DNA of 38,593 bases from a virus (taxonomy: Duplodnaviria > Heunggongvirae > Uroviricota > Caudoviricetes). Location of the stretch: the IMG/VR virus record IMGVR_UViG_2917865565_000005, positions 1 through 38,593 of that record. One strand, given 5' to 3'. Positions 1,033-29,769 of this stretch are shown here, piece by piece. The notes under the pieces were generated by a model. That model did not search any database and was not told the DNA's origin. It saw only the letters and a program-made list of their open reading frames with translations. Made by a program: the position numbers and the translations under genes. Numbering within the stretch: the first letter of the stretch is position 1; every line of letters begins with the position of its first letter.

Positions 1033-1057
1033 AAAAAAGCCCTCATGTCAGAGGGCT
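1033..1057 (-). terminator. Hairpin plus T-tract immediately 5' of the int start codon (minus-strand sense)
   Basis: 7-bp stem AGCCCTC/GAGGGCT (1038-1044 and 1051-1057), 6-nt loop; on the minus strand it is followed by T6 (complement of 1033-1038) abutting the int ATG (1030-1032). The stem also contains the only SD-like purine run for int. Confidence 0.35.
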
Positions 1058-1105
1058 AAATTTAACTGTATGTTTGACCAGTGATCAATGTATGTAAATA
1101 TTAAA

Positions 1106-2878: not shown

Positions 2879-2921
2879 TTTAGACTCCTCCAGTAAATAT
2901 TTAAAAGTAATGCCTGCAATG

Positions 2922-3860
2922 TTATTGTATTGTTAAGATGATGCTGGCTATAATTTGAATATCCTCAATGGAACACTCAAAATCCTTACTCCCACCAGAA
3001 ACAAGAATTTTGTTCTTAGGTAAACGAGTTAACTCTTTTAAAGATAACTCATTGTCAATTCCTACTAACCATTTTCCATCTCTAATTAGGTGAAATTCTT
3101 TATCACATATGACATGTTTTTCTCCATTGCTTACAAACATCAAACTGCTGGTTTCTTGCTTCGGAAGTAGACACCGATCCATGGATAAAAAACCTGACTC
3201 GACAAGCTCGCCATTGACCAAATTGAACTTATTTAAAATCACAGTGTTTTCTTTTTGTGAACCATTTGGCGTTTCGATTCCTGTAACTAGCCAGGTGAGG
3301 TCCGCTTTGGTTTCTAATGCGCATTTAATCACCCAATCCGCAGGGAAAGAATCTCGCATGTATCGTGTGGCTAATGTGCTTTTTGAAATACCAAGGTGAT
3401 CGGCTAAGGCTTGGCGGGTTTTAAACCCGTAAGCATTAACAATCCTCTCTATCGCGGCTTTTCCTCCGTTAGTAAGCTCAATGTGATTCTCAATGTGGCG
3501 CTTTAAGGATGATTGATGAGCGTTGCTGTTAAACCCCTCATGTGGGACTGTTTCATCATGTTGTTCCACATAAGGGGGGAAACTTTCTTCTGCATTGTTA
3601 GAACCAAAGGCCAGCCATTCTAGGGATGCGCCAGTTTCCATTGAACATATAACAACCCAATCAGCAGGGAAGGTATCGCGTGCATATCTATTAGCCATTG
3701 TACTTTGTGAAATACCAAGATGCTTACAGAAGGCTTGGCGTGATTTGAAACCATAGGCCTTGAGTATCCTCTCAATGACTTTTTGCCCTCCACGATTCTG
3801 CATGACCATAGCTTTCAGACTATCTTCGATATGGCGAAATGTGATTTTTTGAGTTGACAT
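2922..3860 (-). CDS. cI: CI-type immunity repressor (186 CI-like) with tandemly duplicated N-terminal HTH domain
   Basis: 312 aa; two copies of a 186-CI-like N-terminal domain ('ERILKAYGFKSRQAFCKHLGISQSTMANRYARDTFPADWVVICSMETGASLEWL' and 'ERIVNAYGFKTRQALADHLGISKSTLATRYMRDSFPADWVIKCALETKADLTWL') followed by a C-terminal domain; divergent from the apl-cII operon. Confidence 0.7.
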   Translation of the reverse strand: MSTQKITFRHIEDSLKAMVMQNRGGQKVIERILKAYGFKSRQAFCKHLGISQSTMANRYARDTFPADWVVICSMETGASLEWLAFGSNNAEESFPPYVEQHDETVPHEGFNSNAHQSSLKRHIENHIELTNGGKAAIERIVNAYGFKTRQALADHLGISKSTLATRYMRDSFPADWVIKCALETKADLTWLVTGIETPNGSQKENTVILNKFNLVNGELVESGFLSMDRCLLPKQETSSLMFVSNGEKHVICDKEFHLIRDGKWLVGIDNELSLKELTRLPKNKILVSGGSKDFECSIEDIQIIASIILTIQ

Positions 3861-3947
3861 ATTCTTTATGTGAACCTATTCTCCGTTTTGTGATGTTTTG
3901 TCACGATTAATACCGGCTCACCACAAGCCAATAGGAGATGTTGCATC
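3861..3947. promoter_or_regulatory. cI / apl intergenic switch region (expected lytic and lysogenic promoters and operators)
   Basis: 87-bp gap between divergent cI and apl starts; direct repeat TTTTGTGA / TTTTGTCA at about 3878-3900; position by analogy to the 186/P2 switch. Promoters not mapped. Confidence 0.4.
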
Positions 3948-4169
3948 ATGACCCCTAACATTTCAATAACTCTGAATACGCCACACGTCACAATTGAGCG
4001 TTATAGCGAACTTACTGGTCTTTCTATCGACACCATCAACGATATGCTGGCTGATGGTCGCATCCCTCGCCATCGCCTTCGGAAAGACAAGAAAAGAGAA
4101 AAGGTAATGATCAACCTTGCTGCTCTTACCGTTGATGCACTTACTGATTGCAATGTTGTATTCAACTAG
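3948..4169 (+). CDS. apl: Apl/Cox-like small HTH excisionase / transcriptional regulator
   Basis: 73-aa ORF, first gene of the rightward early operon, directly upstream of cII; HTH-like '[24 protein letters not shown]'; SD AGGAG 3933-3937. Confidence 0.5.
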
Positions 4170-4201
4170 TTCCATTTTGGGGTGCATCAGGAGTGTCGAC
4201 T

Positions 4202-4711
4202 ATGTTTGATTACCAAGTTTCCAAACATCCACATTTTGATGAAGCCTGTCGTGCATTTGCATTGCGCCACAACCTTGTGCAACTGGCAGAACGTGCAGGT
4301 ATGAATGTGCAGATTCTGCGGAACAAGCTGAATCCAGCTCAACCTCATTTATTAACCGCACCAGAAATCTGGTTGCTTACCGATCTGACTGAAGATTCAA
4401 CGCTGGTAGATGGCTTTCTGGCACAGATTCACTGCCTGCCATGTGTACCGATTAATGAGGTGGCAAAAGAGAAACTGCCGCATTACGTCATGAGTGCAAC
4501 TGCAGAGATAGGGCGTGTCGCGGCAGGTGCGGTTTCTGGCGATGTAAAAACCAGTGCAGGCCGTCGTGATGCGATCAGCAGCATTAACTCTGTTACACGA
4601 CTGATGGCGCTGGCTGCTGTTTCATTGCAGGCCCGTTTACAGGCTAATCCTGCGATGGCGAGTGCAGTTGATACCGTGACTGGCCTCGGTGCTTCATTCG
4701 GTTTGCTGTGA
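4202..4711 (+). CDS. cII: CII lysogeny-establishment activator (186 CII-like)
   Basis: From ATG 4202: '[24 protein letters not shown]...[25 protein letters not shown]...', closely matching 186 CII as I recall it; ORF track starts it at an upstream ATG (4148). Confidence 0.8.
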
Positions 4712-4718
4712 GGTGCTT

Positions 4719-5015
4719 ATGCTGACGAAAGAACCATCATTTGCATCGCTGCTGGTAAAACAAAGCCCGGCAATGCACTACGGTCACGGCTGGATCATGG
4801 GTGAGGATGGCAAACGCTGGCATCCATATCATTCACAAGATGAATTGCTGTCTGAATTGACCACGAGGAAACGGAGAAAGTCCAAATGTATTCGGCAGAA
4901 AGTGAAGTGGTTTATCAGTTTCGTTACAGAGGGGAGAGTTATTCAGTACCTGAAGATGATTTGCTCTGTTGCTATCCGTCGTTGTCGGGCGATGGTAGCT
5001 ACTTTTTCACGCTAA
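4719..5015 (+). CDS. Hypothetical early protein (Fil-like position); 3' end uncertain
   Basis: ORF with SD GAGGTG before ATG 4719; C-terminal about 40 aa overlap the next gene out of frame and look non-protein-like, so the true stop may be earlier. Confidence 0.3.
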   Translation: MLTKEPSFASLLVKQSPAMHYGHGWIMGEDGKRWHPYHSQDELLSELTTRKRRKSKCIRQKVKWFISFVTEGRVIQYLKMICSVAIRRCRAMVATFSR

Positions 5016-5110
5016 AGGATGGAACCTTTATACGTGGTGAAAGAGTACAAGAAGTGATGCGTATAAAGACATCACCTCTTGAACGTTATCGGCGAAATAT
5101 TTATCGGTAA
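4886..5110 (+). CDS. Hypothetical early protein
   Basis: 74-aa ORF with GGAG 9 nt upstream of the ATG. Confidence 0.4.
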   Translation: MYSAESEVVYQFRYRGESYSVPEDDLLCCYPSLSGDGSYFFTLKDGTFIRGERVQEVMRIKTSPLERYRRNIYR

Positions 5111-5349
5111 CGATCTATCAGTGTCTGTATCAGATGAGTGAATTCTTGCTGTTTAACCGAACCTAAAGGAAGTTTGTTTAATTCTTCGCGGAGGAGCTCA
5201 AAAAATGCTGATTGATTTGCTGAGTCAGTTCGAAATAAGGAGTGGATCAGACCTGAAACAAGAATTCGTTGAACAGCAACCTCATCGCGAAGACTGGAGA
5301 TCTCGTTTTCAAGTTGCTCTATACGCTCTCTTTCAACCGGGTTCAACAT
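5101..5349 (-). CDS. Hypothetical charged coiled-coil-like protein encoded antisense to the early operon
   Basis: 82-aa ORF 'MLNPVERERIEQLENEISSLRDEVAVQRI...'; SD AAGGA 8 nt upstream of the ATG (5347-5349); converges on the preceding plus-strand gene. Confidence 0.45.
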   Translation of the reverse strand: MLNPVERERIEQLENEISSLRDEVAVQRILVSGLIHSLFRTDSANQSAFFELLREELNKLPLGSVKQQEFTHLIQTLIDRYR

Positions 5350-5431
5350 TGATGATTCCTTCTAGCTATCAATACGTTGGTAATAGATCATATCAAAAAT
5401 TTTTTTAGTAGATGTGTTGTGGGATGCATAA

Positions 5432-5773
5432 ATGGCTATTGAAGGCGCTGCGGCGACTGTTCCATTAAGACCCGGTGAACGCCTGAATGGACTTAATCAT
5501 ATTGCGGAGTTAAGGGCGAAAGTTTTTGGTTTGAATATTGAGTCAGAGCTTGAGCGGTTTATTAAAGATATGCGTGATCCACGGGATATCAATAATGAAC
5601 AAAATAAACGGGCACTGGCTGCCATATTCTTTATGGCAAAAATTCCAGCTGAACGTCATAGCATCAACATTAATGAGCTGACCACTGACGAAAAGCGGGA
5701 GTTGATTAAAGCAATGAATCATTTTCGTGCAGTGGTGAGCTTATTTCCCAGACGGCTAACCATGCCGAATTAA
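5432..5773 (+). CDS. Hypothetical phage early protein
   Basis: 113-aa ORF in early operon; no recognisable motif. Confidence 0.5.
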   Translation: MAIEGAAATVPLRPGERLNGLNHIAELRAKVFGLNIESELERFIKDMRDPRDINNEQNKRALAAIFFMAKIPAERHSININELTTDEKRELIKAMNHFRAVVSLFPRRLTMPN

Positions 5774-5834
5774 CCAACTAATGAAATTCATGGCGTAAAC
5801 CCGCCGGGCATCCCTTTATCTAAATTCAGGAGAA

Positions 5835-6074
5835 TTGATTATGCGTAATATTGAAACCCTCACGACTAAAACCGGACCGGATGATGCAGGTCTTAATCTT
5901 TTACTGACAGAGGCCCGTCTTGAAGAACGTCGGGCAAGGGCTGAGGCAATGGCTGCCCGCCTTGATAGCCTGGCGTGTCATATCACATCCCGCCAGCTAA
6001 ACCACGTCGAAGCAGCAGAACTGCTGCGTGTGACCGCTGAAGCAATCCAGAACGAAGCGCAGGAGATCCACTAA
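5835..6074 (+). CDS. Hypothetical phage early protein
   Basis: 79-aa ORF; SD AGGAGA upstream; stop overlaps the next ATG (TAATG). Confidence 0.5.
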   Translation: MIMRNIETLTTKTGPDDAGLNLLLTEARLEERRARAEAMAARLDSLACHITSRQLNHVEAAELLRVTAEAIQNEAQEIH

Positions 6075-6301
6075 TGGCTGATGCAATGGATCTCGTACAG
6101 CAGCGCGTTGAAGAAGAACGCCAGCGCCATATCCGAGCTGCCCGTGCCAAAACACCGGGCGTGTCACGCGTACTTTGCATTGAATGTGAAGCGCCAATTC
6201 CGCCAGCACGCCGCCGCGCCATTCCTGGAGTGCAGCTTTGCATTACCTGTCAGGAAATCGCAGAGCTGAAAGGCAAACATTACAACGGAGGTGCTGTATG
6301 A
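6074..6301 (+). CDS. TraR/DksA-family C4 zinc-finger protein
   Basis: 75 aa with 'CIECEAPIP...(17 aa)...CITCQ' CxxC...CxxC spacing typical of TraR/DksA fingers. Confidence 0.7.
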   Translation: MADAMDLVQQRVEEERQRHIRAARAKTPGVSRVLCIECEAPIPPARRRAIPGVQLCITCQEIAELKGKHYNGGAV

Positions 6302-7155
6302 GCACCATCCTGAAATGGGCGGGAAATAAAACCGCCATTATGTCCGAACTGAAAAAACACCTTCCTGCTGGCCCGCGACTGGTTGAACCTTTCGCGGGTT
6401 CCTGTGCTGTGATGATGGAGACGGATTATCCCAGCTATCTGGTTGCGGATATTAATCCTGATTTAATCAACCTCTATAAAAAGGTTGCCGCTGATTGTGA
6501 ATCATTTATATCTCGCGCCAGAGTTTTATTTAAGGAAGCAAACAGGGAGGTGGCTTATTACAACATAAGGCAGGAGTTTAATTACTCAACTGAAATTACT
6601 GATTTCATGAAAGCGGTATATTTCCTGTATCTCAATCGTCACGGTTACCGTGGTTTATGTCGCTATAACAAGAGCGGGCATTTCAACATTCCCTACGGTA
6701 ATTATAAAAATCCGTATTTCCCTGAAAAAGAAATTCGCGAATTTGCAGAAAAAGCCCAGCGGGCAACGTTTATCTGCGCCAGCTTTGATGAAACGCTGGC
6801 GATGTTGAAGGCGGGGGATGTGGTGTATTGCGATCCGCCTTATGACGGTACGTTTTCCGGCTATCACACTGATGGTTTCACTGAAGATGACCAGTATCAC
6901 CTGGCATCCGTTCTTGAACATCGATCATCAGAAGGTCATCCGGTCATTGTTTCTAACAGTGACACATCCCTGATCCGTTCGCTGTATCGCAATTTCACTC
7001 ACCACTACATCAAGGCAAAACGCAGCATCGGCGTGTCAGCTGGCGAGAGTAAATCTGCAACAGAAATCATTGCTGTTTCCGGGCCGCGCTGCTGGATGGG
7101 ATTTGATCCTTCGCGTGGCGTGGATAGTTCTGCTGTGTACGAGGTGCGTGTATGA
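6298..7155 (+). CDS. dam: DNA N6-adenine methyltransferase (Dam family, no cognate endonuclease seen)
   Basis: 'ILKWAGNK', 'EPFAGSCAV', catalytic 'DPPY'; start ATG 6298 with SD GGAGG; ATGA overlaps with both neighbours. Confidence 0.8.
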
Positions 7156-9566
7156 GTCATGCCGATATGAGCAACTCTAGCGGCTTTAACGAGGCTGCCG
7201 CAGCATTTTCATGGAACGGCCCGAAAAAGGCCATTAACCCTTATCTGGAACCGGCGGAAGTTGCGCCGGAGTCTGCACTTTCAAACATGATCACTCTGTA
7301 CGCTGCCGATAACGAGCAGGAACAGCAGCGCCGCGAGGCACTGAGTGATCAGGTCTGGGAACGTTATTTCTTTAATGAATCCCGTGATCCTGTCCAGCGC
7401 GAAATGGAGCAGGATAAGCTCATTAGCCGGGCAAAGCTGGCGCATGAGCAGCAGCGTTTTGACCCGGACATGGTCATTCTGGCGGACGTCAGCGCCCAGC
7501 CTACCCACATCAGCAAGCCGCTGATGCAACGTATCGAATACTTCAGCAGCCTGGGCAGGCCAAAGGCTTATTCCCGCTATTTGCGTGAGACGATTAAGCC
7601 ATGTCTGGAGCGACTGGAGTATGTACGCGACAGTCAGCTATCCGCTTCTTTCCGTTTTATGGCAAGCCATCAAGGGCTTGAGGGCCTGCTGATCCTGCCT
7701 GAAATGAGTCAGGATCAGGTAAAACGCCTGTCCACCCTGGTAGCAGCGCATATGAGCATGTGTCTTGAGGCCGCTTGTGGTGATTTGTATGCCACCGATG
7801 ACGTTAAGCCAGAAGAAATCCGCAAGACATGGGAAAAGGTGGCAGCGGAAACCCTGCGTCTGGATGTTATCCCGCCTGCGTTTGAGAAACTTCGTCGGAA
7901 AAGAAACCGCCGCAAACCCGTGCCCTATGAACTCATTCCGGGTTCGCTGGCGCGTATGCTTTGCGCCGACTGGTGGTATCGGAAATTATGGAAGATGCGT
8001 AGCGAATGGCGGGAAGAGCAGTTGCGTGCTGTTTGCCTGGTCAGCAAAAAAGCATCTCCCTATGTCAGCTATGAAGCAGTGACGCATAAACGTGAGCAGC
8101 GCCGTAAGTCGCTGGAGTTTTTCCGTTCTCATGAACTGGTGAACGAAGACGGCGACACGCTGGATATGGAAGACGTGGTAAACGCCAGCAGCAGCAACCC
8201 TGCGCATCGCCGCAATGAGATGATGGCCTGTGTTAAAGGTCTGGAGCTTATCGCGGAAATGCGCGGTGACTGCGCCGTTTTCTACACCATCACCTGTCCG
8301 TCACGTTTCCATTCCACGCTCAACAACGGCAGACCCAACCCGACCTGGACAAATGCGACGGTAAGACAAAGCAGCGATTATCTGGTCGGCATGTTTGCTG
8401 CATTTCGTAAGGCGATGCACAAAGCCGGGTTGCGCTGGTATGGCGTGCGGGTGGCTGAGCCGCACCATGACGGTACTGTGCACTGGCATCTCATGTGTTT
8501 CATGCGCAAAAAAGACCGCCGCGCCATTACTGCTTTGTTGCGTAAGTTTGCCATCCGTGAAGACCGCGAGGAACTGGGCAATAACACGGGTCCACGCTTT
8601 AAGTCTGAGCTGATAAACCCGCGCAAAGGAACGCCGACAAGCTACATCGCGAAATACATCAGTAAGAACATTGACGGACGTGGTCTGGCTGGCGAGATCA
8701 GCAAGGAAACGGGTAAGTCCCTGCGTGATAACGCCGAATACGTTAATGCCTGGGCGTCTCTGCATCGTGTTCAGCAGTTCCGCTTCTTTGGTATTCCGGG
8801 GCGTCAGGCGTACCGTGAACTTCGCTTGCTGGCTGGTCAGGCGGCAAGGCAACAGGGTGACAAAAAAGCAGGTGCGCCGGTACTGGATGACCCGCGCCTT
8901 GATGCCATCCTGGCTGCCGCTGATGCTGGCTGTTTTGCCACCTACATCATGAAGCAGGGCGGCGTACTGGTTCCCCGCAAATATCACCTTATCAGAACAG
9001 CTTATGAAATTAACGAAGAGCCGACCGCTTATGGCGATCACGGTATTCGTATTTATGGCATCTGGTCACCCATTGTACAGGGCAAGATCTGCACTCATGC
9101 AATGAAATGGAAAATGGTTCGTAAGGCCGTTGACGTTCAGGAGGCGGCAGCCGACCAGGGCGCTTGCGCCCCTTGGACTCGTGGCAATAACTGTCCCCTT
9201 GCTGAAAATTTGAACCAACAGGAGAAAGATAAATCAGCTGATGGGGACACCAGAACGGACATTACCCGCATGGATGACAAGGAGTTGCACGATTACCTGC
9301 ACAGTATGAGCAAAAAAGAGCGCCGGGAACTGGCTGCAAGGTTACGCTTGGTGAAACCGAAACGGCGTAAAGACTACAAACAGCGAATTACAGATCATCA
9401 GCGACAGCAGCTCGTTTATGAGCTGAAGTCCAGAGGATTTGATGGCAGCGAGAAAGAGGTCGATTTACTCCTTCGCGGCGGCAGTATTCCGTCAGGAGCA
9501 GGCCTGCGTATCTTCTATCGGAACCAGCGTCTGCAGGAGGATGATAAATGGCGGAACCTGTATTAA
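7152..9566 (+). CDS. A: Replication initiation (rolling-circle) endonuclease gpA
   Basis: 804-aa ORF at the P2 gene A position after the small early genes; P2 A-like length; '[10 protein letters not shown]' region. Confidence 0.85.
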
Positions 9567-9636
9567 TTACGCTGGTTAACAATTCGTGCTCTTAATAATA
9601 CCAGGCATATCAGGCTGATGAGCGTAAAAAAAACGT

Positions 9637-9679
9637 TTTACATCAGTAAGATTATTATATACTGTAAATATAAACAGTG
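9637..9679 (+). promoter_or_regulatory. SOS-type promoter with LexA box
   Basis: TACTGTAAATATAAACAGTG (9660-9679) fits CTGT-N8-ACAG with an AT-rich spacer; overlaps a sigma70-like promoter (-35 TTTACA 9637-9642, -10 TATACT 9658-9663); directly upstream of ATG 9721. Confidence 0.6.
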
Positions 9680-9720
9680 TTTATGTGTACAGTATTGCTT
9701 GTGGTGTCATAGGAGGAAAA

Positions 9721-9910
9721 ATGCAGGACTATTTTTTGGAGTCTTTGAAGCTCCAGCGCATTGATTTTTTTTCTTAAGCTTGTAGCGGCTAGTGAGTGTA
9801 GTGATGAAGAGAAGGGACTGGCCCTGCAGTGGGTTTCTGAACTGACAGATGAACTCATGGCAAAAATCAGAACCCACGAATACAACCGCTCAATGGATGT
9901 CATCAGTTGA
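9721..9910 (+). CDS. N-terminal portion of a Tum-like SOS-inducible antirepressor (frame broken at a T8 run)
   Basis: ATG 9721 with SD GGAGG 9712-9716; as given it stops after 18 codons (9721..9777); removing one T from T8 (9765-9772) extends it to TGA 9908-9910. Confidence 0.4.
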
Positions 9911-9920
9911 GGTGACTTTT

Positions 9921-10154
9921 ATGCGCATTGAAATAATGATCGATAAAGAGCAGAAGATTAGCCAGTCTACCTTGGACGCCCTTGAATCCGAGCTTTACCG
10001 CAATCTGCGCCCCCTGTATCCCAAAACGGTAATTCGTATCCGTAAAGGTAGCTCTAACGGTGTGGAACTGACCGGACTGCAACTGGATGAAGAAAGAAAA
10101 CAAGTGATGAAAATTATGCAGAAGGTGTGGGAAGACGACAGCTGGCTGCATTAA
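9921..10154 (+). CDS. DinI-like domain protein (probably the C-terminal domain of the Tum-like antirepressor)
   Basis: From ATG 9921: 'MRIEIMIDKEQKISQSTLDALESELYRNLRPLYPKTVIRIRKG...KIMQKVWEDDSWLH', same length and pattern as E. coli DinI (MRIEVTI...WESADDWF) as recalled. Confidence 0.8.
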   Translation: MRIEIMIDKEQKISQSTLDALESELYRNLRPLYPKTVIRIRKGSSNGVELTGLQLDEERKQVMKIMQKVWEDDSWLH

Positions 10155-10162
10155 GAAACGTT

Positions 10163-10192
10163 GCCCCCAGGAGGATTCATTCTGATGGGGGC
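10163..10192. terminator. GC-rich hairpin between convergent genes
   Basis: Stem GCCCCCA (10163-10169) / TGGGGGC (10186-10192), 16-nt loop; lies between the stops of the DinI-like gene (10154) and the ASCH gene (10345). Long loop, weak T-tracts. Confidence 0.3.
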
Positions 10193-10344
10193 TAGTTTGG
10201 GCAACGAGTGAAACGAGGCGTAAGGTGGGTGGGCATTTTGATAAGTGCTCGTTCGCTTTGTGCCAGAGGCGGGCATTAATACAAATTTCACGTGATAAAA
10301 CGGTACTCAGTTATTCTAATCTGACATGCATAAACGTTGTTGGA

Positions 10345-10755
10345 TTACAAAACATCAACAACTTCAAACTCTTCCATAATCAGCTCCATATCGTCAGAAA
10401 AGTAACCTTCACATGTAAAAAATCGTTGATGCTCTCTCTGCCAATATTCAAGACTCAAATCGCCTTCACCTTCCTTGCGAGCGAACTCGGCAGTAACATC
10501 ACAAAAACGCACCAGTCGCATCGACACCAGCCGGGTCACGCATACCGGTACATCCTGGCCGTTAAGGATGATGTTATAGCTCCCAATCCTTGGGGCAAAC
10601 TCTTCCTTCTGGTAAGAGGCATAAGAGCCGCAGGAGGCCGTTTTAATCCCTTTTTTGATAAGTGCTGCAAGCTCGTTAGCCAGTTCAGGGCTGTCGCCCA
10701 CTTGCCAGGCATTCGCGTCCGGATATTTCATCTTTAATTCATCAACCGTAACCAT
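10345..10755 (-). CDS. ASCH/PUA-like domain protein
   Basis: 136 aa; 'LIKKGIKTASCGS' resembles the ASCH GxKT motif (compare YqfB 'ILAGRKTITIRD'); call by pattern recognition only. Confidence 0.5.
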   Translation of the reverse strand: MVTVDELKMKYPDANAWQVGDSPELANELAALIKKGIKTASCGSYASYQKEEFAPRIGSYNIILNGQDVPVCVTRLVSMRLVRFCDVTAEFARKEGEGDLSLEYWQREHQRFFTCEGYFSDDMELIMEEFEVVDVL

Positions 10756-11064
10756 TACAAGTCCTTTCTGATTGTAAAATAGATAAATAGCTGAGCATTA
10801 ATTGTTCAAATATTAACAGTGATGCTCTCTTGTTAGTATCATAGTCCGTTTCTCGTTCACAGCGGACTTTCATCTTTGTAAACCCGTATGATTCGCTTTT
10901 CAGCGGTCATTCAGATACGGATTTACGCTTCCCTTGGCTGTGCATGACTATGCTGCATGAAATCGCATGATCGATTGAGGATCGTTTTTGCAGAGACCTG
11001 CTAGAACTGGCGGGCTTTTACTCATGTCATGCAGGTGCATGAAAACCACTGCATAAAGCGGGCA

Positions 11065-11083
11065 GGCGTGGCGGGGATACGAG
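11065..11083. other. cos: cos cohesive-end site (P2/186-like)
   Basis: GGCGTGGCGGGGATACGAG followed by CGCGCGCTGAC; first 13 nt match the 186 cos 19-mer and the flank matches the P2 left end (GCGCGCTGAC), both recalled from memory. Confidence 0.5.
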
Positions 11084-11163
11084 CGCGCGCTGACATCGTT
11101 AAGTATTGACATATCAGATGTTTAAATAGGAAAATTACCAAAATCCAGAAAAAAGAAAAGAAT

Positions 11164-12313
11164 ATGAAGAAGTTAACTGCGAGACAAAGAGAGATTGACG
11201 TAAAACGCTCGATAAAGTTACGACAAGGGCGTGCTAAAGTTAGAAAAAAAGGTAAATCATTTCACTATAATGTTGAATGGCGTAAGGCTAACTATTGGAT
11301 TGAAGAACAATCAAAAAATGGATTAGATGTACAATTTGTAAGTAAAAAAAAGAAAGGGTTAATTCTAACTTTACCTTCTGAAATGAATTTTTCTACACAC
11401 TACGATGTTACTGTTCAGCATATTAATGCGATTCGAATGTTATCAGAGAGAAAAGGATTGCCTAATGCAGGTTATCAATTAGCATCTGTTAATTTTTTGT
11501 AATTTGAAGAAAATATCGACATCTGCAGCTCTTGTGTTAACTGCAGAGTTATCTAAATGGGATGATGCGATTAGGCAGAGGTTGACTCCAAAAATAGACG
11601 GTTGGGATAAAAATGTTCTACGTAATTTCTATGAATTGGGGTTCTTTGATTTATTCAAAAAAAGCAGGGATATAAAATTAAATTTTAATGATGAGTATTC
11701 AAAAATAAAAGGTAAGCGATTTGTAAAATATCTTAAAGGAAAGTGTGGGGAAATTAAGAAAACAAAAGTATTAAAAGAGGAGATTATTAAATTAGTTGGT
11801 GAGTCTATTGAAAAATGGACTTTCTTACATGGGGGCCTAAGTGAGGCTATTACCAATGTTTCTCATCATGCATATCCTTCTGATTGCGGATATAAAGAAT
11901 ATGATAAGAACTGGTATCTAACAGGATCTTATCATTTAGAAAGTAAGGAATTGAAGATAGTTTTTTATGATCAGGGTGTTGGTATCCCTAAAACTTTACC
12001 TGCATCAAAAGTTTGGGAAAAGGCATTAAATGTATTAGCATCAATTCCTGTATTGGAGCGATATCGTGATGAAGCACTCTTGAAAGCTGCGGTAGAGTTG
12101 GATAGGACAAGTACAGAAGAGGGAGATCGTGGTAAAGGCCTACAGGATCTACTTGAGTTTATTAAACAAAGAGAAAATGGTTATTTATCAATCATGAGCC
12201 TTAAGGGACTTTATAAACACTCAATGAATCAAGGTAATACAAAAATAAAAACTAAGAGTTTTGCATCCCCAATCTATGGTACACTAATAACTTGGAGTGT
12301 ATCTCTTGATTGA
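11164..12313 (+). CDS. GHKL (histidine-kinase-like ATPase fold) protein with basic N-terminal region; ORFs 11164..11502 and 11504..12313 are probably one gene
   Basis: Downstream ORF has N-box 'LSEAITNVSHHAY', G1 'VFYDQGVGIP', G2 'GDRGKGLQDL', G3 'YGTLITW'; it has no ATG or SD (starts at TTG one base after the upstream stop). Removing one T from T6 (11493-11498) fuses the two in frame. Confidence 0.6.
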
Positions 12314-12327
12314 GATGGAGGTTTAAT

Positions 12328-12735
12328 ATGAAAAATCTAGAAATTAATATAGGGAAAGAGTTTTCTTCTACTCCTTCAGGACGTTTCTATTCTGATATGA
12401 CAGATAGCAGCGGCGAACAGTTTAGAGAGGAGCTTTTATGGCCTCGCTTACAATTGCTTAAAGAAAAGCAAAAGATCGACATTATTTTGGATGATGACGT
12501 TGAAGGTTATGGTTCTTCTTTCCTCGTTGAAGGTTTTGCCGGTATAGTAAAATATGGATATATGGATAAACAACAACTATTAAGTAAACTTGAGTTAATT
12601 CAGAGAGATCCTGATTTTGCTTTGTTTAAGAGAAAAATAATACAATATATTAACGAGGCAGTGTTTGATTCAAAGGTTTATGAAAGTACCAAACCTATTT
12701 ATTTGTCTAAGTTGTTGACGCAAAAAAACACGTAA
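12328..12735 (+). CDS. Small STAS-like (anti-sigma-antagonist-like) protein
   Basis: 135 aa from ATG 12328 (SD GGAGG 12317-12321); 'KIDIILDDDVEGYGSSFLVEGFAGIVK' resembles the STAS phospho-serine loop region; stop overlaps the SD of the next gene. Confidence 0.5.
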   Translation: MKNLEINIGKEFSSTPSGRFYSDMTDSSGEQFREELLWPRLQLLKEKQKIDIILDDDVEGYGSSFLVEGFAGIVKYGYMDKQQLLSKLELIQRDPDFALFKRKIIQYINEAVFDSKVYESTKPIYLSKLLTQKNT

Positions 12736-12747
12736 GGAGTAAAGCAA

Positions 12748-13392
12748 ATGGAGCCCAATTATAATTATCATTATATGATGAGTAATAATGAGCTTTATTT
12801 TAGGGCGGGTTATGATGCTCAGCAATATGGGTTTGTTTTTTCTCATTCGGCTGTTGATGATGTCGACTTGGTACATATTATCAATGGTGGTTTTTCATCT
12901 GTTGCAGAAGCTATTAGTAACTCAGGAAACACCACACTTTCTGATGGGATTATACTTGCATTAGCAGGTGCGTTGAGTGCTTTTTTCTTTAATTTGATTC
13001 AAAAAGGAATTGACGCTAAGGCAAAACGTCTCACCAAATCTGGTGAAGCAATGTTATCCTTGATAAATGAATTGGAGGATATTGCAGTACGTTATTGGGT
13101 CAGAGGGCACGATTCATCTTGTGCTGATAATGAAAGCAATATTTGTGATGAGATTAATATCAAAGCCATGTTAATGACCTTGGATAAAAATATTAGGTTT
13201 ATGGTTGATAATTTACCGTTAAAAAACAAGTCTTTAAATAAAAATAAGCTGGAGAAATTTTCTTCTGATATTTATGATTTGGCATCTGGTGAAGATTTCG
13301 AAGCAGAGGTTAGGCCTCCCAATAAAACAAAGGCCTTTGCTATATCGAAAAAATGTAGTGAAGCAAAAGCCATCATTCTTGGTTTGATTTAA
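12748..13392 (+). CDS. Hypothetical protein with one hydrophobic (possible transmembrane) segment
   Basis: 214 aa; SD AAGGAG 12734-12739; hydrophobic stretch 'IILALAGALSAFFFNLI'; stop codon overlaps the portal gene stop on the other strand. Confidence 0.55.
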   Translation: MEPNYNYHYMMSNNELYFRAGYDAQQYGFVFSHSAVDDVDLVHIINGGFSSVAEAISNSGNTTLSDGIILALAGALSAFFFNLIQKGIDAKAKRLTKSGEAMLSLINELEDIAVRYWVRGHDSSCADNESNICDEINIKAMLMTLDKNIRFMVDNLPLKNKSLNKNKLEKFSSDIYDLASGEDFEAEVRPPNKTKAFAISKKCSEAKAIILGLI

Positions 13393-14417
13393 AAACGGTA
13401 ATCCTCAAAGTTAATTACTGTTATGTTTAACCAAATATTTAGCTCTGTTATTCTTTTCTGAAGAATTTCTAATTCATTTTTTACGAATACTTTGGCAGCT
13501 TTCTCCACATCCCCAAACCCCCCAACATTATTAGGCATTATCCCCATCATTTGCGGCGGCACTCGGTGTGCTGCCATCATGTCATCGCGGCTGACATTTT
13601 TGATATTCAGAAATTCATCCTTCGCCGCGACTTCTGACAGAGGAATGATCTGAAGCCCGTCCTTTTTGCCGTTAGGCGAGTACATAAACAGATTGCGGAA
13701 GTTGCCAGGGCCTTTGGCGCTTTTCATCGCATTGCGGAGGTTGTTCACATCCTCCTGGTTTTGCGCGGCATCGGTCATGTACATGATAAAGCCCGCATGG
13801 CTGCCGTTAATGTAATACTTGCGACGGAACAGCGTGGCGGACTCGTTGAGCAGGGCTGACGGAATGGCAGAAAGATAACCGGGCAGGCCGTAGATCTCCT
13901 GATTAATATCCGGTTCCATCAGGTGAAAAATGCTGCCTTTCGTGAACTGATACGGTTGCGTGGTCATGCCGTATTGCACAAACCAGTAGGTATCCAGATC
14001 TAATCCGCGTCGGGTGTATTTTGCCAGCGCAGGCTCAAGGGCGATAACTTCACCGAATCGGTTCGTGCGTTTCTCCAGGTAGGCGTTACCAAATACCAGA
14101 TAGTCCTGCACAAAACGTGAAAAAGCCTGTTGGCTGAGCAGCGGGTGAGGGATGTAGGTGCTGGTCAAAATGTTGCATTTCACCGCAATCGGTGAGCTGT
14201 GATGCACGGCGGCGCGGAAGGTTCGCGCCAGTCCGTCGAAACTTACAGGCGGCTCATACCAGCGATCCATCTGTACGCATTCCACATAGTCCAGCAGTTC
14301 ACGGCGGTCCAGAACAGGAACGGGATCGCCAAAGCTGAATGCTTCGGCTGAAGTTTGGCTTTTATGCTTGAGCTGATTCGTCGCCGCAGCGCGGTTCTTC
14401 TTACTCTTTCCCATCAA
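13389..14417 (-). CDS. Q: Capsid portal protein gpQ
   Basis: 342 aa, P2 Q-like length, paired with the terminase gene as in P2 (Q-P leftward). Confidence 0.9.
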   Translation of the reverse strand: MMGKSKKNRAAATNQLKHKSQTSAEAFSFGDPVPVLDRRELLDYVECVQMDRWYEPPVSFDGLARTFRAAVHHSSPIAVKCNILTSTYIPHPLLSQQAFSRFVQDYLVFGNAYLEKRTNRFGEVIALEPALAKYTRRGLDLDTYWFVQYGMTTQPYQFTKGSIFHLMEPDINQEIYGLPGYLSAIPSALLNESATLFRRKYYINGSHAGFIMYMTDAAQNQEDVNNLRNAMKSAKGPGNFRNLFMYSPNGKKDGLQIIPLSEVAAKDEFLNIKNVSRDDMMAAHRVPPQMMGIMPNNVGGFGDVEKAAKVFVKNELEILQKRITELNIWLNITVINFEDYRF

Positions 14418-16180
14418 AAAATCTCCACAATATTACTGGTATTGGCGGACTCGCCCTGCAGTGGTTCGTTAAACAGTGCGTGCATTGTTGCCCAGGCCAG
14501 ATCGGCGTGGCTGGCTTCTTCGCTGCGGTTGGCTTCATAGGTCGGGCGGTTGCCGCTGGCGGTAGTGGCGCGACGGATTGCCATAAATGATTGCGCAATG
14601 TCGGTGTGTCCGGCGTCAAATTCCAGGCGGCGGTGACTGATAATGTCGTAGGCCTTGAGTACCAGGGCGTTTTTAACGTTGGGGTTGTAGACAAACTCCC
14701 GGACGGCAGGAAAGAACGCTTTCACGTTCTCGTAAACCCCGTGACCGACGCCGGTTGAGTCGATACCGATATAGGTCACGTTGTACTGTTCAGTCAGTTT
14801 TTTGATGGCGTCAGCCTGGGCGCGGAAGTCCATCCCGCGCCACTGGTGACGCTCAAGAATGCGGAACTTACCGCCCGGCACCGCTGGCGGAGCCACCACC
14901 ACGCATCCGGCACTGTCGCCGTTTTGCGTACCTTTCGCCGGGTCATATCCGATCCACACTTCGCGCCAGCCAAACGGACGCAGGGCCAGTGCATGAAAGT
15001 CGGTCCAGACTTCCCAACTGTCCACCATGCACGCCTGCAGCTCGCTGAGCGGGAACACGGACGCGAGATCGTCCACAAACTCGCACATCAGCAGGTTCTG
15101 GTATTCGTCCGGGCTGTACTCCATGCGCAGCTGGTCGAGGTCGAATAGGTTACAGCCGCCGCGCACCGCATCTTCCACGGTGACTATCTGGCGGTATTGC
15201 CCGTCTGCACACAGCAGGCCGGGAGCCAGATTGCTGTGGGACAGGTCGATGTCCACCTTATCGGCTTTGTTGCGCCCACGGTTGAACAGCGCACCGGACC
15301 AGAACGGATAAGCACTGTGGGTCAGGCTGGATGGTGTGGAAAAATAGGTCTGTCGCCATTTCTTGTGAATAGCCATACCGGAAGCCACTTTGCGCAGCTC
15401 CTGGAATTTCGGTATCCAGAAATATTCATCCAGATACAGGTTGCCGTGGTAACTCTGGGCCGTGCGGGCATTGGTGCCGAGGAAGTAAAGCGTGGCCCCG
15501 TTGGGAAGCACCATCGGATCGCCTTTCAGCTCCACCTCCACTTCTTTGGCGAAGTCGATGATGTACTGTTTAAAGACGTGGGCCTGTGCCTTACTGGCGG
15601 AAAGGAAAATCTGGTTACGTCCGGTAAGCAGGGCGTCAATCAGGGCTTCACGGGCAAAGTAAAAGGTCGCGCCGATCTGGCGTGACTTCAGCAGGTTGCG
15701 GATGCGGTTGGTTTTTCCGGCTTCCCACCAGTGGCGCTGGTAGTTGAACATGGAGGAATGGAAAATTTCTTCCAGCTTCTCAATCTGTTCATCGGTGAAA
15801 ACGTTCTTTTCCGGCTGACGGCGTGGGCCTTTGTTGCGGTTGGCGACGTTAGGGTTTAAGTCGGCTTCGTTGCCGCCATTGTTAAACTTGCCGATCCGCG
15901 CGTGGCGTTCCGACTGGCGCGCCAGCAGGTCAATCTCTTTGAAATCTTTCCCTTCTTTGTGCTCCTTCATAATGAGCTGGCAGTAGCGTGCGGCGGTGGT
16001 GAGCTGCATCTGATCCAGCGGCCCATAGTCACCCCACTTGTCGCGTTTTTTCCAGCTGTGAACGGTTGCAACTTTCTCGCCCAGCATTTCAGCAATGCGG
16101 GCTACGCGGTATCCCTGAAAGTACAGCAGCATGGCCTGCCGACGGGGATCGAGATCTGCGGGTGTCAGTGTGGTGTTCAT
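14414..16180 (-). CDS. P: Terminase large (ATPase) subunit gpP
   Basis: 588-aa ORF; P2 P-like length and position; overlaps Q by 4 nt. Confidence 0.9.
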   Translation of the reverse strand: MNTTLTPADLDPRRQAMLLYFQGYRVARIAEMLGEKVATVHSWKKRDKWGDYGPLDQMQLTTAARYCQLIMKEHKEGKDFKEIDLLARQSERHARIGKFNNGGNEADLNPNVANRNKGPRRQPEKNVFTDEQIEKLEEIFHSSMFNYQRHWWEAGKTNRIRNLLKSRQIGATFYFAREALIDALLTGRNQIFLSASKAQAHVFKQYIIDFAKEVEVELKGDPMVLPNGATLYFLGTNARTAQSYHGNLYLDEYFWIPKFQELRKVASGMAIHKKWRQTYFSTPSSLTHSAYPFWSGALFNRGRNKADKVDIDLSHSNLAPGLLCADGQYRQIVTVEDAVRGGCNLFDLDQLRMEYSPDEYQNLLMCEFVDDLASVFPLSELQACMVDSWEVWTDFHALALRPFGWREVWIGYDPAKGTQNGDSAGCVVVAPPAVPGGKFRILERHQWRGMDFRAQADAIKKLTEQYNVTYIGIDSTGVGHGVYENVKAFFPAVREFVYNPNVKNALVLKAYDIISHRRLEFDAGHTDIAQSFMAIRRATTASGNRPTYEANRSEEASHADLAWATMHALFNEPLQGESANTSNIVEIF

Positions 16181-16226
16181 GGCACAAACCTACAGCCTTG
16201 AATGAAGGCTTTCCCCGCCTGCGGTT

Positions 16227-16244
16227 TGTGTGGTTGTCGGTACA
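16227..16244. promoter_or_regulatory. TGT-N12-ACA dyad (P2-type late-promoter activator site) upstream of gene O
   Basis: TGTgtggttgtcggtACA, centred about 87 bp upstream of the O ATG (16323), in the divergent P/O intergenic region. Confidence 0.5.
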
Positions 16245-16322
16245 AATACCGCGCATTGTTTCACTGCCCCCATCACCGCAACCATAAGGCTCCAGTAAGT
16301 TTTTTCTAACGGAGCACGGCTC

Positions 16323-17156
16323 ATGACAGTGAAAGCAAAGCGTTTTCGCATCGGGGTGGAAGGTGCCACCACCGACGGACGCGAAATCCAGCGTGAATGG
16401 CTGGAACAGATGGCAGCCAGCTACAACCCGGCGGTGTATACCGCGCTGATTAACCTTGAGCACATCAAGTCTTATCTGCCGGACAGCACCTTTAACCGCT
16501 ACGGCAAGGTGACGGCGCTGTTTGCTGAAGAAATCACGGAAGGTCCGCTGGCAGGCAAGATGGCGCTGTATGCCGACGTTGAGCCAACGGAATCTCTGGT
16601 GGAGCTGGTGAAAAAAGGCCAGAAATTATTCACCTCTATGGAAGTCAGCCCGAAGTTTGCTGATACGGGCAAAGCCTATCTGGTCGGCTTGGCTGCTACT
16701 GATGATCCCGCCAGTCTGGGTACGGAAATGCTGACATTCAGCGCCAGTGCAGCCCATAACCCGCTGGCAAACCGCAAGCAGAATCCCGCCAATCTTTTTA
16801 CCGCTGCAGAGGAAACGGTGATCGAACTGGAAGAAATCCAGGAGGACAAGCCGTCTCTGTTTGCCCGCGTCACGGCGCTGTTCACCAAAAAAGAGCAGTC
16901 CGATGATGCCAGGTTCTCTGATGTGCATAAGGCCGTGGAACTGGTCGCCACTGAGCAGCAAAACCTGAGCACGCGCACCGAAAAGTCCCTGTCTGAGCAG
17001 GAAGAACGCCTGTCTGAGATGGAGACTGCTCTGCAGGCACAACAAGCCGCCTTTAACGAACTGGTGGATAAGCTGAGTCATGAAGACAGCCGCCAGGACT
17101 ATCGCCAGCGTGCAACAGGCGGTAACGCCCCCGCTGACACTCTGACCAATTGCTGA
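16323..17156 (+). CDS. O: Capsid scaffolding protein gpO
   Basis: 277 aa; first gene of the rightward head operon; acidic coiled-coil C-terminal half. Confidence 0.85.
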   Translation: MTVKAKRFRIGVEGATTDGREIQREWLEQMAASYNPAVYTALINLEHIKSYLPDSTFNRYGKVTALFAEEITEGPLAGKMALYADVEPTESLVELVKKGQKLFTSMEVSPKFADTGKAYLVGLAATDDPASLGTEMLTFSASAAHNPLANRKQNPANLFTAAEETVIELEEIQEDKPSLFARVTALFTKKEQSDDARFSDVHKAVELVATEQQNLSTRTEKSLSEQEERLSEMETALQAQQAAFNELVDKLSHEDSRQDYRQRATGGNAPADTLTNC

Positions 17157-17172
17157 TGGAGCACAAAACCTG

Positions 17173-18228: not shown

Positions 18229-18231
18229 ACC

Positions 18232-18882: not shown

Positions 18883-18977
18883 CAGAACGTGCCCCCGCGC
18901 ACGGGCGGCACGGGGTGGCGAAAGGCACAGCCACATCAAAACTCCGTCCACCGCCCTCTATTTCAGGAGAAAGCAGC

Positions 18978-19645: not shown

Positions 19646-19648
19646 ATT

Positions 19649-22636: not shown

Positions 22637-22674
22637 ATTTGTGTCATCTGTAACTCCTTTGCGCGGATAAACAT

Positions 22675-29760: not shown

Positions 29761-29769
29761 GGGGACAAC

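What the first reader, a model, noticed from the sequence alone, without database searches (positions are those of the whole stretch)
9637..10154. LexA-controlled Tum-like antirepressor with C-terminal DinI-like domain, apparently split into three frames
A near-consensus LexA box (TACTGTAAATATAAACAGTG, 9660-9679) overlaps a sigma70-like promoter and precedes an ATG with a strong SD. The downstream coding runs through three frames (9721-9777, 9773-9910, 9849-10154); removing one T from T8 9765-9772 and one A from A5 9862-9866 gives a single protein of about 150 aa ending in a clear DinI-like domain. That is the size and architecture I recall for the 186 Tum antirepressor, whose SOS-controlled expression makes 186 UV-inducible. 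If correct, this prophage is SOS-inducible through an antirepressor rather than RecA-mediated repressor cleavage.
Basis: partly seen in the sequence, partly recalled or inferred. Interest (0 to 1): 0.6.

Follow-up and report, generated by a model that had tools for sequence, protein, structure and literature searches.

The report
Known phage SOS switch, sequencing artefact
This is the already described DNA-damage switch of a Fels-2/186-type prophage: a LexA-repressed small antirepressor gene followed by a separate DinI-like gene. Its apparent frameshift is almost certainly an Ion Torrent homopolymer error, not biology.

Summary
The sequence features are all at the stated coordinates: LexA box 9660-9679, SD plus ATG 9721, T8 9765-9772, A5 9862-9866, and a DinI-like ORF ending at 10154. 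The three-frame reading does not hold.

In 34 related loci, and in more than 1,000 E. coli genomes, the T run is T7. That gives an intact 62-aa gene (tumA, stop TGA 9908-9910). A separate 77-aa DinI-family gene follows (tumB, own SD, ATG 9921). The A5 run is identical everywhere, so the second "frameshift" is an ordinary gene boundary.

The window is Escherichia cryptic clade II strain E2562 (PDIJ01000005.1), sequenced on Ion Torrent only. Read-based assemblies of the same prophage differ from it by 14 insertion-only homopolymer events and no substitutions in 30 kb. The shorter versions restore eight broken genes, including ybjL and ybjM.

The split tumA/tumB layout is published for Fels-2 and PSP3. 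The corrected TumA is 61/62 identical to the E. coli HS prophage "tum". Deleting that gene, or using lexA(Ind-), abolishes mitomycin C induction. TumA is homologous to the N-terminal half of 186 Tum (hhalign 94.7%, E 5.7e-8).

The parts
9637..9642 (+). -35-like hexamer TTTACA of the tum promoter
   Evidence: Read from the sequence. It lies 17 nt upstream of TACTGT. Phage 186 p95 has the same layout, with the -10 annotated as the first six bases of the LexA box. The consensus scan did not call it, because TACTGT matches TATAAT at only 3 of 6 positions.
9660..9665 (+). -10-like hexamer TACTGT, which forms the left arm of the LexA box
   Evidence: Assigned by analogy with the annotated -10 of 186 p95, TACTGT. 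This is an inference, not a test.
9660..9679 (+). LexA (SOS) box 1, TACTGTAAATATAAACAGTG
   Evidence: Matches 17/20 of the consensus and has a perfect CTGT-N8-ACAG core. The identical box is present in 29 of 34 related loci, and a one-base variant in 2 more. 186 and PSP3 carry a LexA box at the equivalent place.
9675..9694 (+). Second, weaker LexA-like box CAGTGTTTATGTGTACAGTA, overlapping box 1 by 5 nt
   Evidence: Matches 15/20 of the consensus, with a GTGT-N8-ACAG core. MAFFT aligned the single 186 and PSP3 boxes to this one. Its function is inferred only.
9711..9716 (+). Shine-Dalgarno AGGAGG of tumA
   Evidence: Read from the sequence, 4 nt before ATG 9721.
9721..9910 (+). tumA, a small antirepressor gene. 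It is 190 nt in the window because of one extra T. The true length is 189 nt, encoding 62 aa plus TGA.
   Evidence: With T7 the product is identical (62/62) to the protein in many other genomes. It is 61/62 identical to E. coli HS ECHS_RS04495. It matches phrog_698 at 3.6e-38. hhalign to 186 Tum residues 5-44 gives probability 94.7% and E 5.7e-8. The deletion primers of the DuoHS delta-tum mutant map to 9701-9723 and 9908-9930.
9765..9772 (+). T8 run. One T is an assembly artefact, and the true run is T7.
   Evidence: T7 is found in 34 of 34 independent loci and in the read-based assembly of the same prophage. The source genome was sequenced on Ion Torrent only.
9909..9913 (+). Shine-Dalgarno GAGGT of tumB, overlapping the tumA stop codon TGA 9908-9910
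   Evidence: Read from the sequence. The stop/SD/ATG arrangement is conserved in 30 of 34 loci.
9921..10154 (+). tumB, a free-standing DinI-family gene (77 aa)
   Evidence: Pfam DinI 6.6e-23 over residues 14-76. It is 41% identical to 186 Tum residues 71-145 (E 3e-24). It aligns from residue 1 to solved E. coli DinI 1ghh. Fels-2, PSP3 and RefSeq E. coli all annotate a 234-nt gene here.
10163..10192 (+). GC-rich hairpin after tumB, a possible weak or partial terminator
   Evidence: RNA fold of 10150-10215 gives -20.4 kcal/mol and z -2.1, with a 7-bp GC-rich stem and a poor T tail. It lies at the same position as the partial terminator t95a of 186. This is an inference.
2922..3860 (-). 186-type CI repressor (312 aa), the presumed target of TumA
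   Evidence: Pfam Phage_CI_repr 2.8e-58 (two HTH stretches) and Phage_CI_C 1.7e-23, with no S24 peptidase domain. The 312-aa length is confirmed in read-based assemblies.

Best explanation
The region is the SOS operon of a Fels-2-like (P2/186 family) prophage. The prophage is integrated between rcdA and ybjL in Escherichia cryptic clade II strain E2562. A sigma-70 promoter whose -10 lies inside a LexA box (9660-9679) drives two separate genes. These are tumA (62 aa, a predicted two-helix hairpin) and tumB (77 aa, DinI family), followed by a hairpin.

Proposed mechanism. In a lysogen, LexA keeps the operon off. DNA damage activates RecA, LexA cleaves itself, and TumA is made. TumA binds the non-cleavable 186-type CI repressor and keeps it off its operators, which starts lytic growth. 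TumB probably modulates RecA filaments as DinI does.

What is shown and what is inferred. Shown here: the anatomy, its conservation, and the homologies. Shown by others in a 61/62-identical homologue: tum and cleavable LexA are both required for mitomycin C induction. Inferred: TumA binding to this 312-aa CI, and the role of TumB.

The T8 run that breaks tumA in the window is an Ion Torrent homopolymer overcall in the GenBank assembly. The real gene is intact. The "second frameshift" at A5 is not a frameshift but the normal tumA stop and tumB start.
For: Architecture. Fels-2, PSP3 and RefSeq E. coli all annotate a 60-62-aa gene followed by a 77-aa DinI-family gene directly after gene A. PSP3 names them tumA ("similar to 5' end 186 tum; UV induction of prophage") and tumB. 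All 34 independent loci have T7 and 33 have A5; the A5 region of the 34th lies beyond the end of its locus. None of 1,097 E. coli records matches the T8 version exactly.

Artefact. The window is 100% identical to PDIJ01000005.1. That genome was sequenced only on Ion Torrent, 35-400-nt single reads at 50x (PMC6639607). The Logan assembly of SRR8835204 carries the same prophage at the same site. It differs by 14 events in 30.4 kb compared, all of them insertions in the window, 13 of them single-base extensions of A/T runs, and no substitutions. SRR6148323 agrees with it at 6 of the 7 such sites that its contigs cover. The shorter versions restore Old (589 aa), TumA (62), a 382-aa gene, a 301-aa gene, tail-fibre assembly (199), an acyltransferase (329), ybjL (561) and ybjM (125).

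Homology. TumA matches phrog_698 at 3.6e-38, and 186 Tum residues 1-70 also hit phrog_698, phrog_8554 and phrog_1993. Smith-Waterman score is 57 against shuffles of 21.2 +/- 3.9, with 0 of 5000 shuffles reaching it. A 38-sequence profile against 186 Tum gives probability 94.7% and E 5.7e-8, aligning residues 5-44 to 5-44. TumB is 41% identical to 186 Tum 71-145.

Function. Lemire et al. state that Fels-2 and PSP3 have tum split in two by a stop codon, with the antirepressor upstream and the DinI homologue downstream, and that Tum binds CI and prevents operator binding (PMC3121763). In E. coli HS prophage DuoHS, an in-frame tum deletion or lexA(Ind-) abolishes mitomycin C lysis (PMC12055606). 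The deletion primers delimit exactly the 62-aa ORF and leave the DinI gene intact. CI lacks an S24 domain.
Against: The two read-based assemblies probably come from the same Ion Torrent project, so they are not an independent technology. I could not see run metadata to prove that either run is strain E2562. I could not retrieve the tumA region of the SRR6148323 contig.

The window's CI is 312 aa with a duplicated HTH domain. It is only 55% identical to the DuoHS CI over the shared part. That TumA neutralises this particular CI is therefore extrapolated.

BLASTP finds no TumA/186 Tum similarity, and a low-diversity profile gave only 14% probability. The promoter scan did not call the proposed promoter. 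LexA binding was not tested.
Confidence: 0.9

Rival explanations
1. The extra T is real. tumA in strain E2562 carries a recent +1 frameshift, making only an 18-aa peptide. The prophage can then no longer be induced by the SOS response, and only the DinI-like gene is still expressed from the LexA-controlled promoter.
For: The deposited sequence does read T8. Homopolymer tracts are natural frameshift hotspots. The read-based assemblies may derive from a sister isolate, or from the same error-prone chemistry.
Against: The same record shows 13 further insertion-only homopolymer differences and no substitutions against assemblies of the same prophage. These break seven other genes, including the conserved host genes ybjL (twice) and ybjM. 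That many real +1 frameshifts in 38 kb is implausible. No other genome among 34 loci or about 1,100 E. coli records has T8.
Confidence: 0.05
2. The T tract is a programmed or phase-variable switch. Transcriptional slippage, +1 ribosomal slippage, or slipped-strand replication on the U/T run restores TumA in a fraction of transcripts or cells, which tunes inducibility.
For: On GAU UUU UUU UCU, a +1 shift of Phe-tRNA would re-pair perfectly and recreate the wild-type sequence FFLKL (read from the sequence). From general knowledge, runs of 8-9 T or A are known sites of RNA polymerase slippage.
Against: The tract is T7 with an in-frame ORF in every other locus, so no shift is needed. No stimulatory element or rare codon follows. 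The T8 state itself is best explained as an artefact.
Confidence: 0.02
3. One reading: the ancestral gene is one 186-like Tum of about 143-150 aa (antirepressor fused to DinI) that has suffered two frameshifts, at T8 and at A5.
For: Removing one T and one A yields a 143-aa ORF. 186 Tum is a 146-aa fusion of the two homologous halves.
Against: A5, the TGA stop at 9908-9910 and the SD plus ATG 9921 are conserved in relatives. The bridging 24 codons (9849-9920) are simply the +1 frame of the tumA 3' end. DinI homology starts at Met 9921. The exhaustive profile search found 85 representatives. Nearly all are 22-104 aa, four are longer (123-1,205 aa), and none is Tum-sized with an N-terminal match. 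The split is published.
Confidence: 0.01

Closest known systems
tum of the E. coli HS prophage DuoHS (ECHS_RS04495) with its DinI-like neighbour ECHS_RS04500 (Phollow study, PMC12055606)
   Same: Same prophage type and the same insertion site (rcdA...ybjL). TumA is 61/62 identical. The LexA box, SD and tumA-stop/tumB-start junction are the same. Requirement of tum and cleavable LexA for mitomycin C induction was shown experimentally there.
   Different: The DuoHS CI is 189 aa. Here it is 312 aa with a second HTH domain, and 55% identical over the shared part. The cargo genes downstream of tumB differ.
PSP3 tumA/tumB and Fels-2 STM2728/STM2726.1
   Same: A two-gene SOS operon after gene A: a small upstream antirepressor, a 77-aa DinI homologue downstream, and a LexA box in the promoter (PMC3121763). 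The Fels-2 DNA is 97.6% identical over the locus.
   Different: PSP3 TumA (60 aa) is only weakly similar to this TumA (SW 33, 156 of 5000 shuffles as good; hhalign E 0.0044) and is closer to 186 Tum. Fels-2 carries an orf97 homologue downstream. This prophage carries an ASCH gene and other cargo instead.
Tum of coliphage 186 (146 aa; p95 promoter and LexA site)
   Same: Same genomic position after gene A. The LexA box overlaps the -10. The N-terminal 44 residues are homologous to TumA, and the C-terminal half is 41% identical to TumB. The CI repressor is of the same Pfam families. Tum acts by binding CI and preventing operator binding (Shearwin et al. 1998, cited in PMC3121763).
   Different: In 186 the two halves are one polypeptide with internal starts. 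Here they are two genes separated by a stop codon. 186 has one LexA box, whereas this promoter has a second overlapping LexA-like box.
E. coli DinI (PDB 1ghh)
   Same: TumB matches it over its full length (2.7e-6, residues 1-75 to 1-77) and ends in the acidic WEDDSW tail.
   Different: TumB is phage-borne and co-transcribed with an antirepressor. Its effect on RecA is untested.
Gifsy/Fels-1 LexA-controlled antirepressor operons (dinI-gfoA/gftA-irsA)
   Same: The same logic: a LexA-repressed operon encoding a small antirepressor plus a DinI homologue, acting on a non-cleavable repressor (PMC3121763).
   Different: The gene order is reversed (dinI first). No GfoA/GftA-like family appeared among the profile matches of TumA. 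The repressor is of the DicA/RacR type and the phages are lambdoid.

Membership tests
Fels-2/PSP3-type split tum operon (tumA + tumB) | Two separate ORFs after gene A: about 60-62 aa, then a stop codon, then a 77-aa ORF with its own SD | tested here: met
   Met for the T7 sequence found in read-based assemblies of this prophage and in 34 of 34 related loci. In the window as deposited, tumA is broken by one extra T.
Fels-2/PSP3-type split tum operon (tumA + tumB) | The upstream product belongs to the antirepressor family shown genetically to be needed for induction | tested here: met
   61/62 identical to DuoHS Tum. The published deletion primers map to the ORF ends.
Fels-2/PSP3-type split tum operon (tumA + tumB) | The downstream product is a DinI-family protein | tested here: met
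   PF06183 at 6.6e-23, above the gathering score. phrog_189 at 1.5e-29. DinI 1ghh at 2.7e-6.
Fels-2/PSP3-type split tum operon (tumA + tumB) | A LexA operator overlapping the promoter | tested here: met
   17/20 consensus box at 9660-9679 overlapping the -10-like hexamer and conserved in relatives. This is a sequence-level test only.
Fels-2/PSP3-type split tum operon (tumA + tumB) | SOS-dependent prophage induction requires tumA | not testable with these tools
   Shown only in the E. coli HS homologue.
186 Tum (fused antirepressor-DinI protein) | An N-terminal domain homologous to Tum residues 1-70 | tested here: met
   hhalign probability 94.7%, E 5.7e-8, residues 5-44. SW z of about 9. Shared PHROG hits. 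BLASTP was negative.
186 Tum (fused antirepressor-DinI protein) | Antirepressor and DinI-like domains on one polypeptide of about 146 aa | tested here: not met
   A conserved TGA at 9908-9910 followed by SD and ATG 9921. Of the family representatives found, nearly all are 22-104 aa and none is Tum-sized with an N-terminal match.
186 Tum (fused antirepressor-DinI protein) | The cognate repressor is a 186-type CI without a self-cleavage domain | tested here: met
   PF07022 and PF16452 are present and no Peptidase_S24 is found.
186 Tum (fused antirepressor-DinI protein) | Direct binding to CI that blocks operator binding | not testable with these tools
   Known for 186 Tum (Shearwin 1998). Untested for TumA and the 312-aa CI.
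Genuine frameshifted pseudogene | The frame-breaking indel is present in the organism's DNA, not only in one assembly | tested here: not met
   It is absent from read-based assemblies of the same prophage. It is one of 14 insertion-only homopolymer differences in an Ion Torrent assembly. Raw reads were not inspected.

The most novel reading that the evidence does not exclude
The T8 allele is real in strain E2562, and the T7/T8 tract in tumA acts as a slippage-prone, heritable on/off switch of SOS inducibility. This would be a phase-variable antirepressor that lets a lysogen lineage temporarily lock its prophage in.
Probability: 0.03. Interest if true: 0.4.

Novelty: already known. Interest (0 to 1): 0.07.

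Why it matters
It matters mainly as a caution. A plausible frameshifted-regulator story came from a single homopolymer overcall in an Ion Torrent draft genome. The same record carries at least 13 more such errors in this 38-kb stretch, breaking Old, ybjL, ybjM, tail-fibre genes and others. Pseudogene or frameshift calls from this record should not be trusted without read support, and the other Ion Torrent assemblies of BioProject PRJNA412557 deserve the same check.

Biologically, the corrected locus predicts that this clade II Escherichia strain carries a fully SOS-inducible Fels-2-like prophage. It would work through the known LexA, then TumA, then CI route. This adds one more host lineage to a very widespread system but no new mechanism.

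Tried and rejected
- BLASTP of corrected TumA against 186 Tum gave no alignment. Pfam gave nothing for TumA, and there was no PDB sequence match. A low-diversity profile gave only 14% hhalign probability. Homology became clear only with PHROG profiles, a shuffle-calibrated Smith-Waterman test and a 38-sequence profile.
- Two exact-pattern scans of GTDB species representatives found nothing. One used the T8 context and the other a host-flank 33-mer. The source was instead identified through exact-protein look-ups and the genome announcement.
- I tried to retrieve the tumA part of the SRR6148323 contig through cII and an 82-aa neighbour. Both proteins are too common, so other genomes came back.
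- Bunny et al. 2002 (PMC151935) is not held, so it is cited only through PMC3121763.
- The promoter scan found only an opposite-strand match and did not call the + strand promoter. I treat the minus-strand hit as chance in AT-rich palindromic DNA.
- I considered that the 312-aa CI might itself be a fusion artefact, because a C6 run lies in the linker. I rejected this: the same 312-aa ORF is in the read-based assemblies and in an E. coli complete genome.
- The AlphaFold model of TumA is a confident two-helix hairpin (pLDDT 90). I did not run a fold search, because helical hairpins match non-specifically.

Full report
**What is in the sequence.**
- A -35-like TTTACA lies at 9637-9642. Seventeen bases further on is TACTGT, the left arm of the palindrome TACTGTAAATATAAACAGTG (9660-9679).
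- This palindrome matches 17/20 of the LexA consensus and is the only CTGT-N8-ACAG in the window.
- AGGAGG is at 9711-9716 and the ATG at 9721.
- A T8 run lies at 9765-9772, followed by a TAA in frame at 9775-9777.
- A second frame is open to TGA 9908-9910.
- A third frame is open from ATG 9849 to 10154, and its last 77 codons are a clear DinI domain (Pfam 6.6e-23).

The bare motif is not above chance for 38.6 kb: 0.59 expected, and 43 of 100 shuffles have at least one. Its weight comes from position and conservation.

**Context.** The upstream 804-aa ORF is the P2/186 gene A replication endonuclease. The window is a complete Fels-2-like prophage, running from int to ogr, followed by ybjL, ybjM and grxA. 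The locus is 97.6% identical to Fels-2 and 95-99% identical to prophages in about 1,100 of 5,426 complete E. coli genomes.

In all of these the annotation is the same: a 189-nt "hypothetical" gene (62 aa), 10 nt of spacer, then a 234-nt DinI-family gene. PSP3 names the equivalent pair tumA ("similar to 5' end 186 tum; UV induction of prophage") and tumB. In 186 itself the two halves form one 146-aa Tum, behind promoter p95 and an annotated LexA site that overlaps the -10 TACTGT.

**The two supposed frameshifts.** Aligning the window with Fels-2 and two E. coli prophages gives one coding difference, T8 against T7.
- An 80-nt probe centred on the run found 1,097 E. coli records, and none matched the T8 version exactly.
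- With T7 the first two frames join into MQDYFLESLKLQRIDFFLKLVAASECSDEEKGLALQWVSELTDELMAKIRTHEYNRSMDVIS, which is identical to the protein of many other genomes.
- The A5 run (9862-9866) is unchanged in 33 of the 34 relatives; in the 34th its region lies beyond the end of the locus. The TGA at 9908-9910 and the GAGGT SD plus ATG 9921 are present in 30 of the 34.
- DinI homology starts at that methionine.

The 9849 ATG is therefore only an in-frame upstream extension. Gene callers sometimes pick it in other genomes too, overlapping the 62-aa gene. The second frameshift does not exist.

**The first frameshift is an assembly artefact.** Exact-protein look-ups show the window is 100% identical to GenBank PDIJ01000005.1 (GCA_004745205.1). 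That record is Escherichia cryptic clade II strain E2562. It was sequenced only with Ion Torrent single-end reads at 50x and assembled with MIRA and SPAdes (PMC6639607). This fits the 92% identity of the host flank to E. coli.

Logan read-based assemblies of two runs, SRR8835204 and SRR6148323, carry the same prophage at the same site.
- Over the 30.4 kb I could compare (window 1-12569 and 20765-38593), SRR8835204 differs at 14 places.
- Every difference is an insertion in the window. Thirteen are single-base extensions of A/T runs.
- There are no substitutions.
- SRR6148323 agrees with it at 6 of the 7 such sites that its contigs cover. The exception is the intergenic A run at 35938.

Ten of the events lie in coding sequence. 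The shorter version restores a full-length conserved gene every time:

| Gene | Restored length |
|---|---|
| P2 Old homologue (PADLOC 4.2e-234) | 589 aa |
| TumA | 62 aa |
| Unnamed cargo gene | 382 aa |
| Unnamed gene | 301 aa |
| Tail-fibre assembly | 199 aa |
| Acyltransferase | 329 aa |
| ybjL (two hits) | 561 aa |
| ybjM | 125 aa |

Caveats:
- The run metadata were not visible to me.
- The runs probably come from the same Ion Torrent project.
- I could not retrieve the tumA stretch of the second run.

Even so, eight genes broken by +1 homopolymer insertions in 38 kb, in one assembly only, is the signature of flow-chemistry overcalls and not of biology. I put the artefact at about 93-95%.

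- BLASTP finds nothing, and Pfam has no family for it.
- It matches phrog_698 (3.6e-38), phrog_8554 and phrog_1993. 186 Tum residues 1-70 hit the same three families in the same register.
- Smith-Waterman gives 57 against 21.2 +/- 3.9 for shuffles, with 0 of 5000 as good. The alignment is ungapped, residues 6-41 on 6-41.
- The word-indexed search found 482 relatives across Enterobacterales, mostly 62 aa and unnamed.
- The exhaustive profile search found 85 representatives at 50% identity. Nearly all are 22-104 aa, four are longer (123-1,205 aa), and none is Tum-sized with an N-terminal match.
- A 38-sequence profile built from them aligns to 186 Tum residues 5-44 with 94.7% probability and E 5.7e-8.
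- PSP3 TumA is closer to 186 Tum than to this protein.
- AlphaFold predicts a confident two-helix hairpin (pLDDT 90).
- TumB is 41% identical to 186 Tum residues 71-145.

The two genes therefore correspond to the two halves of 186 Tum. The free-standing form is the common one.

**Function.** Lemire et al. state that Tum binds its repressor and prevents operator binding. They also state that Fels-2 and PSP3 have tum split by a stop codon, with the antirepressor upstream and the DinI homologue downstream (PMC3121763).

The Phollow study gives genetics for the closest relative. In the E. coli HS prophage DuoHS, which sits at the same insertion site, an in-frame deletion of tum (ECHS_RS04495) or lexA(Ind-) abolishes mitomycin C-induced lysis and virion foci (PMC12055606). 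Their deletion primers fuse the ATG after GTGGTGTCATAGGAGGAAAG to the TGA before GGTGACTTTTATGCGCATTG. These map to window 9701-9723 and 9908-9930. The deleted gene is exactly the 62-aa ORF, and the DinI gene is left intact. DuoHS Tum is 61/62 identical to the corrected product here.

The window's repressor (2922-3860, minus strand) has the 186 CI HTH and C-terminal domains and no S24 peptidase domain.

Two points remain extrapolated:
- This CI is 312 aa with two HTH domains and is only 55% identical to the DuoHS CI. TumA action on it is inferred.
- The role of TumB is unknown. Deleting dinI homologues had no clear effect in Gifsy phages.

**Verdict.** This is an ordinary, already described Fels-2/PSP3-type LexA-controlled tumA-tumB operon. 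The three-frame split has two causes: one sequencing artefact and one normal gene boundary. Interest is low. The main practical outcome is a warning about homopolymer errors throughout this GenBank record.

Noticed in passing
window 1654, 2730, 2813, 5406, 9626-9633, 11493-11498, 22425-22426, 27168-27176, 28045-28052, 35938-35945, 37410-37417, 37527-37531, 38085-38092: Thirteen further insertion-only homopolymer differences from read-based assemblies of the same prophage, with no substitutions. They split Old (589 aa), a 382-aa gene, a 301-aa gene, tail-fibre assembly (199 aa), an acyltransferase (329 aa), ybjL (twice) and ybjM. The source is an Ion Torrent-only draft (strain E2562). The stretch 12570-20764 was not compared.
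   Followed up: yes
window 2922-3860 (-): The CI repressor is 312 aa with two tandem 186-type HTH domains (residues 23-93 and 127-200) before the CI C-terminal domain. The usual size is about 190 aa. It is real, being present in read-based assemblies and in an E. coli complete genome. Related prophages carry CIs of 189, 198, 210, 216, 292 and 311 aa, while TumA stays nearly invariant. This raises the question of which conserved part of CI TumA recognises.
   Followed up: partly
window 9675-9694: A second LexA-like box (CAGTGTTTATGTGTACAGTA, 15/20) overlaps the strong box by 5 nt and lies between the -10 and the SD. 186 and PSP3 have a single box. It may act as a tandem operator for tighter repression.
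   Followed up: partly
window 10345-13392: The variable cargo between tumB and the portal gene comprises an ASCH-domain gene (10345-10755, minus strand), a 382-aa gene (11164-12313, split by an artefact), a gene of about 135-141 aa with a weak DUF4325/STAS-like match, and a 214-aa gene. None hits PADLOC. At the same spot relatives carry retron Ec67, KAP NTPase, SIR2 plus AAA ATPase, DndB-like, GAPS4 PDDEXK, AIPR or DUF4062 genes. This may be an uncharacterised defence cassette in a known P2-like hotspot.
   Followed up: partly
window 1106-2753 (-): A P2 Old-type nuclease (PADLOC Old 4.2e-234 for the corrected 589-aa protein) sits between int and CI. In the window it is split into 368-aa and 170-aa ORFs by homopolymer artefacts.
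   Followed up: yes
window 9899-9916: A small hairpin (GTCATC...GGTGAC) spans the tumA stop codon and the tumB SD and is followed by TTTTAT. It could couple tumB translation to tumA, or attenuate transcription. The fold is weak (-10.5 kcal/mol, z -1.4).
   Followed up: partly
window 35971-38593: The host flank (ybjL, ybjM, grxA) is only about 92% identical to E. coli. This fits the source being Escherichia cryptic clade II. The prophage sits at the same rcdA/ybjL site as DuoHS in E. coli HS.
   Followed up: yes
L027 (GCA_046838465.1, CP177308.1) 11792-13279 and 2681-4168: In one related E. coli prophage a 495-aa reverse-transcriptase (RVT_1) gene, possibly a group II intron, is inserted between gene A and tumA. 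This is the region where the tum promoter normally lies. A second copy lies near int.
   Followed up: no
L047 (GCA_900448685.1) 1944-2132: One related prophage has the 62-aa tumA but no DinI-like gene called after it. tumB therefore seems dispensable for carrying the antirepressor.
   Followed up: no
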